From Escherichia coli (GTDB taxonomy: Bacteria; Pseudomonadota; Gammaproteobacteria; Enterobacterales; Enterobacteriaceae), in NCBI RefSeq assembly GCF_003019035.1, contig NZ_CP027447.1: DNA of 64,000 nucleotides; one strand, written 5' to 3'. The position numbers were made by a program. Shown here piece after piece: positions 33,768 through 36,700 of this stretch (positions are counted from its first letter, which is position 1; each line of letters opens with the position of its first letter).

Positions 33768-36700
33768 TAACAAAAGCAATTTCTCCGGGATTCTGTATAC
33801 AAAAACGCCGTAAAGTTTGAGCGAAGTCAATAAACTCCCTACCTATTCAGGGCAATATCTCTCTCGCAGGTGAATGCAACGTCAAGCGATGGGCGTTGCG
33901 CTCCATATTGTCTTACTTCCTTTTTTGAATTACTGCATAGCACAATTGATTCGTACGACGCCGACTTTGATGAGTCGGCTTTTTTTTGCCTGTTATTTAT
34001 CAGCGTCTACCCTTTAAGAGTCCACCCAATGACCGGAGGGAAATATGACGACACTTATTTATTTGCAAATTCCTGTCCCTGAACCGATTCCTGGCGATCC
34101 TGTTCCAGTGCCCGATCCGATCCCTCGCCCGCAACCCATGCCTGACCCACCACCCGATGAAGAACCGATTAAATTGTCGCATCGTGAGCGTAGATCTGCG
34201 AGGATACGCGCCTGCTAACTTTGCGTCGATGACCACGAGAATAGATTGTGACCGCTTTTTCTACCCTGAATGTTTTGCCTCCCGCCCAACTCACGAACCT
34301 TAATGAGTTGGGTTATTTAACCATGACGCTGGTGCAGGCCGCCGCGCTTCCGGCGATCCTTGCCGGAAAAGATGTTCGCGTGCAGGCGAAAACCGGCAGC
34401 GGCAAAACGGCGGCTTTTGGCCTCGGGCTGCTACAGAAAATTGATGCGTCGCTATTTCAGACCCAGGCTTTAGTGCTGTGTCCTACGCGTGAACTGGCGG
34501 ATCAGGTGGCAGGTGAATTGCGTCGGCTGGCGCGTTTTCTGCCAAATACCAAAATTTTGACGTTGTGCGGTGGTCAACCGTTCGGTATGCAGCGTGATTC
34601 GTTGCAACATGCGCCGCATATTATCGTGGCAACGCCGGGTCGTTTGCTGGATCACTTGCAAAAAGGCACGGTATCACTGGATGCGCTGAATACTTTGGTG
34701 ATGGATGAGGCCGACCGCATGCTGGATATGGGATTTAGCGATGCCATTGATGATGTCATCCGTTTTGCGCCTGCATCTCGACAGACGCTTTTGTTTTCGG
34801 CAACCTGGCCGGAAGCCATCACCGCAATCAGCGGACGAGTGCAACGCGATCCTTTAGCGATTGAAATTGACTCAACAGATGCTCTGCCACCTATTGAACA
34901 ACAATTTTATGAGACATCCAGCAAAGGCAAAATTCCGCTGTTGCAACGGTTATTAAGTTTGCATCAGCCATCCTCTTGCGTGGTGTTTTGCAATACCAAA
35001 AAAGATTGTCAGGCTGTCTGCGACGCGCTGAATGACATAGGGCAAAGTGCATTGTCGTTACATGGCGATCTGGAGCAACGTGACCGCGATCAGACCCTGG
35101 TACGTTTTGCTAACGGTAGCGCTCGTGTGCTGGTCGCGACGGATGTTGCTGCGCGTGGTCTTGATATTAAATCGCTTGAGCTGGTAGTGAACTTTGAACT
35201 GGCGTGGGACCCTGAAGTTCATGTACATCGCATCGGTCGTACAGCGCGTGCAGGAAATAGCGGTCTGGCGATCAGTTTCTGTGCCCCGGAAGAAGCACAG
35301 CGGGCCAATATCATTTCTGACATGTTGCAGATAAAACTTAACTGGCAAACGCCGCCAGTTAATAGTTCCATTGTGCCGCTGGAAGCAGAAATGGCAACGT
35401 TATGTATCGATGGCGGGAAAAAAGCCAAAATGCGCCCGGGTGATGTATTAGGTGCGCTGACAGGAGACATCGGGCTTGATGGCGCAGATATTGGCAAAAT
35501 CGCCGTGCATCCGGCGCATGTCTATGTCGCGGTGCGTCAGGCTGTTGCTCATAAAGCATGGAAACAGTTACAGGGCGGGAAGATTAAAGGAAAAACGTGC
35601 CGGGTGCGGTTATTAAAATAATGAAATGTTGAATTGCCGGGTGCAAGAGTAAACATCTTATTCGGGATTGCCGGATGCGACGCTGGCCGCGTCTTCTCCG
35701 GCCTCCATAAGAGTAGCCCGATAAGCTTGCGCATCGGGCGCTATCCGGGTTATTTCACTTCAACCACATTCAGTCGTAACTCATCCAACTGATTTTCATC
35801 TTCTTCAGGCTGCCAACCCGCCGGTTGTAGAGGGATCTCTTCGCGATCAAACGCCAGATCACCCCCGTTAACCACTTCAGAACCGTGGGTAATGCCTTTG
35901 AAATCGAACAGGTTGGTATCGCACAGATGCGACGGCACCACATTCTGCATCGCGCTGAACATCGTCTCGATACGCCCCGGATAACGTTTATCCCAGTCAC
36001 GCAACATGTCAGCAATCACCTGACGTTGCAGGTTAGGCTGTGAACCGCACAGGTTGCACGGAATAATCGGGAACGCTTTTGCATCGGCAAAGCGCTGAAT
36101 ATCTTTCTCGCGGCAGTAGGCCAGCGGACGAATAACGATATGTTTGCCATCATCGCTCATCAGTTTCGGAGGCATACCTTTCATCTTGCCGCCGTAGAAC
36201 ATATTTAAGAACAGCGTTTGCAGGATATCGTCACGATGGTGACCCAACGCGATCTTCGTCGCCCCCAGTTCCGTTGCGGTGCGATAAAGGATACCGCGAC
36301 GAAGACGAGAACACAGTGAGCAAGTGGTTTTGCCCTCCGGAATCTTCTCTTTCACGATACCGTAAGTGTTCTCTTCCACAATCTTGTACTCAACGCCCAG
36401 CTTTTCAAGATACTCGGGCAGAACGTGTTCCGGGAAGCCCGGTTGTTTTTGATCGAGGTTAACAGCCACCAGCGAAAAATTGATTGGCGCGCTTTGCTGC
36501 AAATTGCGCAGAATTTCCAGCATGGTATAGCTGTCTTTACCCCCGGAGAGGCAAACCATGATGCGATCGCCTTCTTCAATCATATTGAAGTCAGCAATGG
36601 CTTCGCCCACGTTACGACGCAGACGTTTTTGTAATTTGTTCAGGTTGTATTGTTCTTTCTTACTAATTTCTTGATTTTGCGACATTTAAAAGCGACTCAA

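What the first reader, a model, noticed from the sequence alone, without database searches (positions are those of the whole stretch)
34045..34218. Unlisted 57-codon proline-rich ORF with a strong SD between fnrS and dbpA
A GGAGGG motif lies 4-5 nt upstream of ATG 34045. The ORF encodes MTTLIYLQIPVPEPIPGDPVPVPDPIPRPQPMPDPPPDEEPIKLSHRERRSARIRAC.

Sixteen of the 57 residues are Pro, mostly in a strict x-P alternation like the rigid spacer of TonB. There is one PPP run of the kind that needs EF-P. The tail is basic and contains three of the rarest E. coli codons within six codons (AGA, AGG, ATA). The stop lies 29 nt before the GTG start of dbpA, which has only a weak Shine-Dalgarno sequence of its own.

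The ORF is either a real small protein or a translated leader whose ribosome pausing (polyproline plus rare codons) could tune dbpA translation or FnrS terminator read-through. It falls below the 60-aa track cut-off. An antisense 78-aa ORF in the track (34000..34236) covers the same DNA. It may coincide with a K-12 small-protein or candidate-sRNA annotation at this locus, which I cannot confirm from memory.
Basis: partly seen in the sequence, partly recalled or inferred. Interest (0 to 1): 0.5.

Follow-up and report, generated by a model that had tools for sequence, protein, structure and literature searches.

The report
Known small gene ynaL, upstream of dbpA
The 57-codon proline-rich ORF is real, but it is the already annotated and experimentally detected E. 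coli small-protein gene ynaL (formerly the "sRNA" C0343); its function is unknown, and comparative data suggest it is an independent gene rather than just a leader for dbpA.

Summary
It is ynaL (b4743, "proline-rich small protein YnaL", Pfam PF23677). It was first listed as candidate sRNA C0343. It was later shown to encode a 57-aa protein by RNAcode, EHEC ribosome footprints, tetracycline ribosome profiling and a chromosomal SPA-tag immunoblot.

I found it intact upstream of dbpA in 80 of 80 Enterobacteriaceae species. Its SD and ATG are conserved, and its Pro-rich core is as constrained as dbpA (pN/pS 0.077 vs 0.098).

The "rare-codon" tail is different. AGA, AGG and ATA lie in a 21-nt block that is invariant even in lineages where an earlier stop leaves it untranslated. 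That block and a second one keep fixed spacing to each other and to the dbpA start.

In Phytobacter, Mixta, Scandinavium, an Enterobacter sp. and Erwinia, ynaL persists right after fnrS without an adjacent dbpA. There it has a different C-terminus and lacks block B; block A survives only as a degenerate remnant in one locus.

So ynaL is an autonomous gene whose 3' end, in Escherichia-type genomes, runs into a dbpA control element (internal promoter or RNA leader, unresolved). The idea of dbpA tuning by pausing is not excluded but is unsupported. Novelty: already known.

The parts
33866..33983 (+). fnrS sRNA gene with its terminator. It is the constant upstream neighbour of ynaL in every lineage examined.
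   Evidence: Rfam RF01796 scores 134.8 bits. The terminator hairpin is at 33960-33979. FnrS also lies 60-70 nt upstream of ynaL in Phytobacter, Erwinia, Mixta, Scandinavium and an Enterobacter sp..
33986..34013 (+). Candidate weak sigma70 promoter of ynaL: TTGCCT (33986-33991), a 16-nt spacer, then TACCCT (34008-34013). This is inferred, not shown.
   Evidence: Both hexamers and the spacer length are conserved across genera. Erwinia psidii has TTGCCA-17 nt-TATGCT at the same place. It matches only 7 of 12 consensus positions, so the consensus scan did not list it.
34035..34040 (+). Shine-Dalgarno GGAGGG of ynaL
   Evidence: It lies 4 nt before the ATG. A GGAGG-type site precedes the conserved ATG in nearly all 80 loci.
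34045..34218 (+). ynaL coding sequence (57 codons plus stop), b4743, proline-rich small protein YnaL
   Evidence: RefSeq annotation. Pfam PF23677 scores 136.9 bits over the full length. The identical sequence is published with SPA-tag immunoblot detection. EHEC RIBOseq gave a ribosomal coverage value (RCV) of 2.49.
34096..34167 (+). Conserved Pro-rich core DPVPVPDPIPRPQPMPDPPPDEEP (codons 18-41). This is the part under protein-level purifying selection, and most of it is shared with the dbpA-less lineages.
   Evidence: Codon-position entropy is 0.22/0.18/1.08. pN/pS is 0.077 against 0.098 for dbpA. The AlphaFold model is extended, with pLDDT above 90 for residues 21-40 and no helix or strand.
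34147..34155 (+). PPP run (codons 35-37, within DPPPD). By general knowledge this is an EF-P-dependent type of motif.
   Evidence: PPP is present in 73/80 loci; the exceptions are DPSPD, DPPQE, DPPAD and DPPQD. It is retained, but moved to 2-3 codons before the stop, in 4 of 5 dbpA-less lineages.
34165..34183 (+). Block A, CCGATTAAATTGTCGCATC (codons P-I-K-L-S-H). It is invariant at the nucleotide level, including synonymous sites.
   Evidence: It lies exactly 11 nt from block B in 79/79 loci. GUCGCA (34176-34181) can pair with U-GUG-AC at the dbpA start, but there is no covariation. It is absent from dbpA-less lineages, apart from a 4-mismatch remnant in L090.
34192..34212 (+). Block B, AGATCTGCGAGGATACGCGCC (codons R-S-A-R-I-R-A, including AGA/AGG/ATA). 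It is an invariant nucleotide element of the ynaL-dbpA junction. It is a candidate extended -10 (TGc-GAGGAT) with a GC-rich discriminator, or an RNA leader element.
   Evidence: It is invariant in more than 70 species, including lineages where an upstream in-frame TAG/TAA leaves it untranslated. It ends 31-40 nt before the dbpA start. It is absent wherever dbpA is not adjacent.
34236..34250 (+). dbpA initiation region: the weak SD-like CGAGA and the GTG start codon
   Evidence: CGAGA and ATTGTGAC are invariant. GTG is the start in 79/80 loci.
34248..35621 (+). dbpA, the downstream gene in Escherichia-type genomes
34377..34386 (+). CGCGTGCAGG in dbpA (codons R-V-Q), a candidate pairing partner of block B. 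This is unproven.
   Evidence: It appears in the consensus fold. 98.4 % of cells are paired against 15-74 % in the slid controls, but there are no double-sided changes.
34000..34236 (-). Antisense 78-aa ORF. It is not a gene.
   Evidence: It is open in only 11/80 loci. Its codon position 1 coincides with the fast-evolving position 3 of ynaL. It has no Pfam match.

Best explanation
The ORF is ynaL, a genuine, translated, autonomous small gene. It is transcribed just downstream of the fnrS terminator, probably from its own weak promoter (inferred). It is translated from a strong GGAGG site (shown by others).

The product has a short N-terminal helix followed by an extended, acidic, x-P-repeat rod of polyproline-II type. 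That core is the selected, functional part. It most likely acts in trans as a small protein, for example as a ligand or spacer in a protein or ribosome interaction (inferred; the partner is unknown). Its PPP run makes its synthesis EF-P-sensitive (general knowledge, not tested).

In Escherichia-type Enterobacteriaceae, dbpA sits immediately downstream. The last ~15-20 codons of ynaL read through an invariant two-block DNA/RNA element that belongs to dbpA control. It is either an internal extended -10 promoter or a leader that pairs with the dbpA start region. The basic, rare-codon tail is therefore a by-product of that overlap and not a pausing device.
For: - Identity and translation: RefSeq/K-12 annotation. 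Pfam YnaL scores 136.9 bits. The identical 57-aa sequence was detected by SPA-tag immunoblot and was positive in tetracycline ribosome profiling. The RIBOseq ribosomal coverage value was 2.49, and the reclassification from C0343 is reported in the same paper.
- Selection on the peptide: position-3 entropy is 1.08 against 0.22 and 0.18. Core pN/pS is 0.077 against 0.098 for dbpA. The ORF is intact in 80/80 species.
- Autonomy: the arrangement zntB-fnrS-ynaL without adjacent dbpA occurs in Phytobacter, Mixta, Scandinavium and an Enterobacter sp. In Erwinia, ttcA lies between ynaL and dbpA. The core is retained in all of them, and in four a hairpin follows the stop.
- The tail is not selected as codons: block B is invariant where untranslated. 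The stop position varies from -50 to +63 nt, while the block A-B spacing is fixed at 11 nt and the gap from block B to the dbpA start is 31-40 nt. Block B is absent, and block A absent or degenerate, whenever dbpA is not adjacent.
- Shape: the AlphaFold model has pTM 0.22, helix at residues 2-8 only, and residues 21-40 confidently extended. The family is always a stand-alone ORF of 17-106 aa.
Against: - No function, partner or phenotype is known for YnaL in the literature held.
- A trans-acting role is inferred only from sequence constraint and from persistence without dbpA.
- The promoter assignments rest on weak consensus matches. The scan found none at its threshold.
- What blocks A and B actually do is unresolved. 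There is no covariation, no significant folding (z = -0.71) and no transcription start site (TSS) data.
- Tight ynaL-dbpA linkage in 80 species remains compatible with functional coupling.
- I did not check whether the dbpA-less genomes carry dbpA elsewhere.
Confidence: 0.8

Rival explanations
1. ynaL is primarily a cis-acting translated leader or arrest peptide. Ribosome pausing at DPPPD (EF-P dependent) or in the tail sets how many ribosomes reach the junction, and so tunes dbpA translation.
For: - ynaL lies immediately upstream of dbpA in 80/80 species of the Escherichia-type group.
- PPP is kept in 73/80.
- dbpA keeps a GTG start and a weak CGAGA site everywhere.
- Block A can pair with the dbpA start codon, and every ynaL-translating ribosome would open that helix.
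- DbpA and EF-P are both more abundant in exponential phase (correlation only).
Against: - ynaL survives without an adjacent dbpA in five lineages, four of them with a hairpin after the stop.
- Non-proline core residues are as conserved as the prolines, with pN/pS 0.077.
- The stop-to-start distance ranges from -50 to +63 nt.
- A ribosome paused at codons 35-37 would not reach GUCGCA at 34176 (geometry, inference).
- The rare-codon block is conserved where it is untranslated.
- There is no covariation and no significant structure.
Confidence: 0.15
2. Blocks A and B are DNA. They form an internal promoter for dbpA embedded in the 3' end of ynaL. It would consist of an extended -10, TG-c-GAGGAT (34197-34205), a GC-rich discriminator ACGCGCC, and a start site near 34212 giving a ~35-nt leader. 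A GC-rich discriminator would suit growth-rate or stringent control of a ribosome-assembly factor (general knowledge of rrn-type promoters).
For: - The blocks are invariant irrespective of translation.
- The A-B spacer is constant in length (11 nt) but variable in sequence, and the gap from block B to the start codon is 31-40 nt.
- The only variable base inside TGnGAGGAT is the 'n'.
- Erwinia psidii's separate dbpA has TGT-TACACT ending 41 nt before its GTG, against 42 nt in E. coli.
- The blocks are missing wherever dbpA is not adjacent.
Against: - GAGGAT matches only 3 of 6 consensus positions.
- TTGTCG would lie 19 nt away, and its first T varies.
- The consensus scan found no promoter.
- Block B has no significant sequence similarity to the Erwinia leader.
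- No TSS data were available.
Confidence: 0.35
3. Blocks A and B act as RNA in the ynaL-dbpA transcript. Block A pairs with the dbpA start codon. Block B (UCUG...UACGCG) pairs with dbpA +130..+139, leaving CGAGGA bulged. This would form a closed state that ynaL translation or a trans factor opens.
For: - The consensus folds recover both helices.
- 98.4 % of cells are paired, against 15-74 % in the slid controls.
- The partner's synonymous changes are more often compatible than not: 19 compatible (G-U or U-A) against 11-12 that break a pair.
Against: - No pair changes on both sides.
- The structure was derived from the same consensus, which inflates the comparison with the slid controls.
- The compatible changes are transitions, which are expected anyway.
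- The E. coli minimum free energy (MFE) is ordinary, z = -0.71.
- There is no Rfam family match.
Confidence: 0.3
4. The locus is a non-coding sRNA (the old C0343 annotation), and the ORF is incidental.
For: It was historically listed as candidate sRNA C0343.
Against: - The codon-position signature and low pN/pS indicate coding.
- Ribosome footprints and a tagged protein have been reported.
- C0343 was removed from Rfam according to PMC5331693, and there is no Rfam hit.
- There is no stable fold.
Confidence: 0.02
5. ynaL-dbpA expression depends on read-through of the FnrS terminator, or on FnrS pairing with ynaL.
For: fnrS is the invariant upstream neighbour, 60-70 nt away, even in Erwiniaceae.
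Against: - dbpA mRNA falls (log2 -1.86) under anaerobiosis in Shigella, the condition in which FNR induces FnrS (the FnrS induction is general knowledge).
- FnrS has a strong terminator, with 8 pairs and a T8 run.
- The FnrS duplex with the ynaL initiation region is unremarkable; 69 % of background initiation regions pair at least as well.
- A conserved candidate promoter follows the terminator.
Confidence: 0.07

Closest known systems
YnaL family (Pfam PF23677; E. coli K-12 b4743; formerly candidate sRNA C0343)
   Same: It is this gene. The 57-aa sequence is identical to the published one, it lies at the same locus between fnrS and dbpA, and it gives a full-length Pfam match.
   Different: Nothing differs. 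The function of the family is uncharacterised in the literature held.
Proline-codon leader ORFs that sense EF-P or Pro-tRNA (Salmonella mgtP/mgtL in the mgtCBR and mgtA leaders; own knowledge)
   Same: Each is a short ORF with consecutive Pro codons directly upstream of another gene, and pausing could in principle be read out downstream.
   Different: Those leaders are much shorter, conserved mainly in their Pro codons, and coupled to alternative RNA hairpins. YnaL has a 24-33-residue core under protein-level selection and no supported alternative structure. It also persists without the downstream gene.
Regulatory arrest peptides (SecM-secA, MifM-yidC2, VemP-secDF2, TnaC; own knowledge)
   Same: A conserved nascent peptide of tunnel length lies upstream of a gene with a weak initiation region. 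A possible helix involves the downstream start codon.
   Different: No arrest has been shown. The adjacency to dbpA is not universal and the stop/start geometry is not conserved. The tagged protein is detected by immunoblot; the paper says most of the 13 small proteins in this group were at high levels, with no YnaL-specific figure.
TonB proline-rich spacer (Pfam TonB_N; NCBIfam TonB)
   Same: The x-P alternation with acidic then basic character and the extended rod-like prediction are shared.
   Different: The matches are compositional only: 20.8 bits against a cut-off of 315, and 11 bits against 33. There is no TM anchor and no C-terminal TonB domain, and YnaL is a stand-alone protein of ~57 aa.

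Membership tests
YnaL (Pfam PF23677) | Full-length match to the family profile above the gathering score | tested here: met
   136.9 bits against a cut-off of 27, E = 2.1e-40, residues 1-57 aligned to profile positions 1-57.
YnaL (E. coli b4743) | Same locus (fnrS > ynaL > dbpA) and identical protein sequence | tested here: met
   K-12 1409308-1409481 is annotated ynaL. WP_001296046.1 is annotated at the 100 %-identical locus. The sequence is identical to the one printed in PMC6001520.
Real protein-coding gene | Purifying selection in this frame and conservation of the start signals | tested here: met
   Codon-position entropy is 0.22/0.18/1.08. pN/pS is 0.077. An SD plus ATG is present in 80/80 loci.
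Real protein-coding gene | Direct evidence of translation | not testable with these tools
   Taken from the literature: SPA-tag immunoblot and tetracycline ribosome profiling, and a RIBOseq ribosomal coverage value of 2.49.
Translated leader / arrest peptide for the downstream gene | Obligate linkage to the regulated gene across taxa | tested here: not met
   ynaL lacks an adjacent dbpA in Phytobacter, Mixta, Scandinavium and an Enterobacter sp. In Erwinia, ttcA lies between the two genes.
Translated leader / arrest peptide for the downstream gene | Conserved RNA structure that masks the downstream initiation region and is opened by the leader ribosome | tested here: inconclusive
   A 6-bp helix can form between block A and the start codon, and a 10-bp helix between block B and dbpA +130. 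Both are invariant, so there is no covariation. The E. coli fold has z = -0.71.
Translated leader / arrest peptide for the downstream gene | Demonstrated ribosome pausing or arrest at a defined codon | not testable with these tools
   This needs ribosome profiling or toeprinting, with and without EF-P.
EF-P-dependent polyproline protein | PPP (or strong XPP/PPX) motif, and its conservation | tested here: met
   DPPPD is at codons 34-38. PPP is present in 73/80 loci and in 4/5 dbpA-less lineages. Dependence on EF-P itself was not tested.
TonB (NCBIfam NF008084 / Pfam TonB_N) | Score above the curated cut-off, with a TM anchor and C-terminal domain | tested here: not met
   20.8 bits against 315, and 11 bits against 33. 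Only the Pro-rich stretch aligns.
sRNA C0343 / any Rfam family | Match to an RNA family, or a stable conserved fold | tested here: not met
   Only FnrS matches in 33500-34600 at E <= 1. The fold has z = -0.71. PMC5331693 reports that C0343 was removed from Rfam.
23S rRNA hairpin-92 mimic (DbpA autoregulation site) | Sequence resemblance of blocks A/B to 23S 2540-2610 beyond chance | tested here: not met
   The best local alignments do not fall near h92, and their scores do not exceed those of shuffled queries; the fraction of shuffles scoring at least as high was 0.63-0.999.

The most novel reading that the evidence does not exclude
In Escherichia-type genomes the invariant ynaL-dbpA junction makes dbpA output depend on ribosomes completing the hard-to-translate DPPPD-containing YnaL. 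This would create a feedback loop. Peptidyl-transferase or EF-P performance, read out on a proline-rich nascent chain, would set the level of DbpA, the helicase that remodels the 23S region next to the peptidyl-transferase centre. YnaL would then be both a small protein and a sensor ORF.
Probability: 0.12. Interest if true: 0.7.

Novelty: already known. Interest (0 to 1): 0.22.

Why it matters
As a discovery, the ORF itself adds nothing. It is annotated in RefSeq, has a Pfam family, and its product was detected years ago. What remains open is what YnaL does.

The comparative results here narrow that question:
- The selected part is the acidic x-P core, not the basic tail.
- The gene's constant partner is fnrS, not dbpA.
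- The "rare-codon" tail is an overlap with an invariant 48-nt junction element tied to dbpA.

That junction is a concrete, testable candidate for how a ribosome-assembly helicase is controlled, either as an internal promoter or as an RNA leader. No regulation of dbpA is described in the papers I could search.

Tried and rejected
- 23S rRNA h92-flank mimicry by blocks A/B (a resemblance recalled from memory): alignment scores were no better than shuffles.
- Sigma70 consensus promoter between fnrS and dbpA: none found at the scan threshold.
- Stable RNA structure of 34156-34277: z = -0.71. Consensus folds gave only invariant helices, with no covariation.
- Extra copies of the junction element in E. 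coli: one place per genome.
- FnrS pairing with the ynaL or dbpA initiation regions: unremarkable against 48 background initiation regions.
- A consistent intramolecular partner for block A elsewhere: its best duplexes simply hit the FnrS terminator.
- Sequence homology of block B to the Erwinia dbpA leader: 10/21, at chance level. Only the TGn-NAnnnT position coincides.
- TonB or other family membership: compositional hits far below the cut-offs. No PDB relative.
- The antisense 78-aa ORF as a gene: open in 11/80 loci.
- A CsrA-type GGA hairpin in block B: no literature link between E. coli dbpA and CsrA surfaced. This was left untested.
- The RNAcode paper (PMC3062170) is not held. Its result is cited through PMC5331693.
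- No supplementary files are held for PMC6001520.
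Full report
**Observation.** The ORF is exactly as described. 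It runs 34045..34218 on the + strand, has 57 codons, and encodes MTTLIYLQIPVPEPIPGDPVPVPDPIPRPQPMPDPPPDEEPIKLSHRERRSARIRAC. GGAGGG (34035-34040) ends 4 nt before the ATG. The peptide has 16 prolines and one PPP run at codons 35-37 (34147-34155). AGA, AGG and ATA are codons 50, 53 and 54. They are rare here, at 2.0, 1.9 and 4.5 per 1000 codons in the 33 long ORFs of this window. The TAA stop lies 29 nt before the dbpA GTG at 34248. FnrS lies upstream at 33866-33983 (Rfam, 134.8 bits). The antisense 78-aa ORF exists.

**Identity.** The ORF is not unlisted. A 601-nt query around it matches 5392 of 5426 complete E. coli genomes, and every listed record annotates "ynaL: proline-rich small protein YnaL" under the match. 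Coordinates are exact in a 100 %-identical genome and in K-12 MG1655 (b4743, 1409308-1409481). The peptide matches Pfam PF23677 "YnaL" over its full length, at 136.9 bits against a cut-off of 27.

VanOrsdel et al. 2018 (PMC6001520) print the identical sequence at "fnrS / dbpA > > >". They detected the chromosomally SPA-tagged product by immunoblot. They note that it was also positive in a tetracycline ribosome-profiling screen, and they remark on its adjacency to dbpA. Neuhaus et al. 2017 (PMC5331693) state that the former "ncRNA" C0343 contains this ORF. They report a ribosomal coverage value of 2.49 in EHEC, that Washietl et al. 2011 (RNAcode) had shown it encodes a 57-aa protein, and that it was removed from Rfam. 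I could not read the RNAcode paper itself. I found no paper that assigns a function.

**Coding evidence of my own.** I fetched the dbpA locus from one genome for each of 80 species: Escherichia, Salmonella, Citrobacter, Enterobacter, Klebsiella, Raoultella, Kosakonia, Leclercia, Lelliottia, Pseudescherichia and others.
- All 80 carry the ORF upstream of dbpA, with an ATG preceded by a GGAGG-type site.
- Lengths are 46-84 aa, with a median of 60.
- In a 30-codon gap-free core, column entropy is 0.22, 0.18 and 1.08 at codon positions 1, 2 and 3.
- For the 23 codons DPVPVPDPIPRPQPMPDPPPDEE, mean pN/pS against E. coli is 0.077 (pS 0.73, near saturation). For 400 codons of dbpA in the same genomes it is 0.098.
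- The non-proline residues are as fixed as the prolines.
- The antisense ORF is open in only 11 of 80 loci. Its first codon position coincides with ynaL's fast third position, so it is not a gene.

**The tail is a different kind of sequence.** From codon 41 onward, synonymous sites stop varying. Two blocks are essentially invariant across genera:
- Block A: CCGATTAAA[T/A]TGTCGCAT (34165-34183).
- Block B: AGATCTG[C/A]GAGGATACGCGCC (34192-34212).

They are separated by about 8 variable bases. Block B contains the three rare codons.

In 14 of 80 loci, from at least four lineages, an in-frame TAG or TAA falls in the variable spacer. YnaL then ends at ...SHR or ...MSR. Block B remains intact downstream even though it is no longer translated.

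The ynaL stop lies anywhere from 63 nt upstream of the dbpA start to 50 nt inside dbpA, the latter in the K. oxytoca group. By contrast, the block A-to-block B distance is 11 nt in 79/79 loci, and block B ends 31-40 nt before the dbpA start. The constraint is therefore on nucleotides positioned relative to dbpA. It is not on slow codons or on the point of termination.

**A natural experiment.** An exhaustive profile search of 1.84 billion representative proteins found only 36 clusters. All are stand-alone ORFs of 17-106 aa. The most divergent come from Phytobacter diazotrophicus, Erwinia, Mixta, Scandinavium and an Enterobacter sp..

Their loci read zntB - fnrS - ynaL, followed by a hairpin and a convergent ttcA, with no dbpA within the 2.5 kb fetched downstream. 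This holds for Phytobacter, Mixta, Scandinavium and the Enterobacter sp. In Erwinia psidii the order is zntB - fnrS - ynaL - ttcA - dbpA. FnrS was confirmed in these loci at 110-136 bits.

All of them keep the core SDPVPTDPVPxPxPIPxPQPxPDP. Their C-termini differ:
- Three of them (Phytobacter, Erwinia, Mixta) end in a shared ...DPxPxPIxDPPPH/Y[R/M]-stop.
- Scandinavium ends ...PIMFGLR.
- The Enterobacter sp. ends ...PYKLSRV.

Block B is absent in all five. Block A is absent, apart from a 4-mismatch remnant in one. The Erwinia dbpA leader has neither block.

Two conclusions follow. First, ynaL is an autonomous gene whose constant neighbour is fnrS. Second, blocks A/B and the RSARIRAC tail occur only where ynaL abuts dbpA, so they belong to that junction.

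**What the junction is.** I could not settle this.
- RNA reading. Consensus folding recovers GUCGCA (34176-34181) paired with U-GUG-AC at the dbpA start. It also recovers UCUG...UACGCG of block B paired with CGCGUG-CAGG at dbpA +130..+139 (34377-34386). On 77 sequences, 98.4 % of cells pair, against 15-74 % for the slid controls. However, no pair changes on both sides, and the structure was derived from the same consensus. The E. coli fold is ordinary, z = -0.71.
- DNA reading. T-G-n-GAGGAT (34197-34205) has the form of an extended -10, and the only variable base is the "n". It is followed by the GC-rich ACGCGCC, and a start site there would give a leader of about 35 nt. Erwinia's separate dbpA has TGT-TACACT ending 41 nt before its GTG, against 42 nt in E. 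coli. But the hexamer is weak, the consensus scan finds no promoter, and block B has no significant similarity to the Erwinia leader.
- Rejected ideas. Mimicry of the 23S hairpin-92 region bound by DbpA is rejected. The element is single-copy and matches no Rfam family.

**Transcription of ynaL.**
- Directly after the FnrS terminator, TTGCCT (33986-33991) and TACCCT (34008-34013) are conserved with a constant 16-nt spacer.
- Erwinia has TTGCCA-17-TATGCT at the same position.
- This is a weak but conserved promoter candidate, and it is an inference.
- In Shigella, dbpA mRNA falls (log2 -1.86) under anaerobiosis. That is the condition in which FNR induces FnrS (general knowledge), so it argues against read-through driving dbpA.
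- FnrS shows no special complementarity to the ynaL or dbpA initiation regions.

**The protein.**
- AlphaFold with 35 homologues gives no globular fold (pTM 0.22).
- The model has a short helix at residues 2-8 and a confidently extended segment without helix or strand at residues 21-40, with pLDDT above 90. This is consistent with a polyproline-II-type rod.
- No solved structure is related.
- The TonB hits are compositional and far below the cut-offs.
- PPP is kept in 73/80 loci. It is re-created near the stop in four of the five dbpA-less lineages, so it is a feature of the peptide rather than of dbpA control.

**Mechanism and rivals.** My best account has a confidence of 0.8 for identity, autonomy and the overlap interpretation. 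The trans-acting role is inference. YnaL is a small protein whose function lies in its acidic x-P core. Its 3' end in Escherichia-type genomes reads through a dbpA control element.

It fails the test of obligate linkage, it is not supported by structure, and its rare-codon component is contradicted. For the junction, I rate the internal promoter at 0.35 and the RNA leader at 0.3. These two are not exclusive of the main account.

**Verdict.** This is an already known gene, so interest is low (0.22). What remains of value is the unknown function of YnaL and the invariant junction upstream of a ribosome-assembly helicase. The most novel reading still open is a feedback from proline-rich translation to DbpA level. 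I give it a probability of about 0.12.

Noticed in passing
window 34165-34183 and 34192-34212: Two nucleotide blocks at the 3' end of ynaL are invariant across more than 70 Enterobacteriaceae species, including at synonymous sites and where they are untranslated. They are exactly 11 nt apart and lie 31-40 nt from the dbpA start. They are absent where dbpA is not adjacent. Their function is unresolved (internal dbpA promoter or RNA leader).
   Followed up: yes
window 33986-34013: TTGCCT-16 nt-TACCCT, directly after the FnrS terminator T-tract, is conserved across genera. Erwinia has TTGCCA-17-TATGCT at the same place. This is a possible ynaL promoter that overlaps the end of fnrS.
   Followed up: partly
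window 33866-34218; loci L084, L085, L088, L089, L090: The fnrS-ynaL adjacency (60-70 nt) is conserved even in Erwiniaceae and in genomes lacking an adjacent dbpA. It is tighter than the ynaL-dbpA linkage. No FnrS/ynaL pairing was found, and the reason for the linkage is unknown.
   Followed up: partly
window 33817-33830: The FNR-box-like sequence TTGAGCGAAGTCAA lies upstream of fnrS. The 'canonical FNR site in the dbpA promoter region' mentioned in PMC4229854 is probably this fnrS promoter site (my inference).
   Followed up: no
L047, L049, L052 (Klebsiella oxytoca, K. michiganensis, K. grimontii), about 2880-3050: The usual ynaL stop is lost. The ORF runs to 84 aa and overlaps the dbpA start by 50 nt in another frame.
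   Followed up: partly
window about 32726-32773: RefSeq annotates a 15-codon ORF (ynaN, labelled ydaN in one record) 14 nt upstream of zntB. It is another tiny upstream ORF in this window.
   Followed up: no
L002 (CP169086.1, labelled Enterobacter hormaechei B17-3); L003 (MAG 'Proteobacteria'): These records carry an E. coli-identical ynaL and a dbpA 98 % identical to the window. This suggests mislabelled or mixed assemblies.
   Followed up: no
protein P0141: One database 'YnaL' has every Pro replaced by Leu or Phe (MTTLIYLQIFVFELIFGDF...). This is the pattern expected from systematic C-to-T conversion in the source reads, and it is probably an artefact.
   Followed up: no
/ summary: Six of the 5392 E. 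coli matches to this chromosomal locus lie on records typed as plasmids.
   Followed up: no
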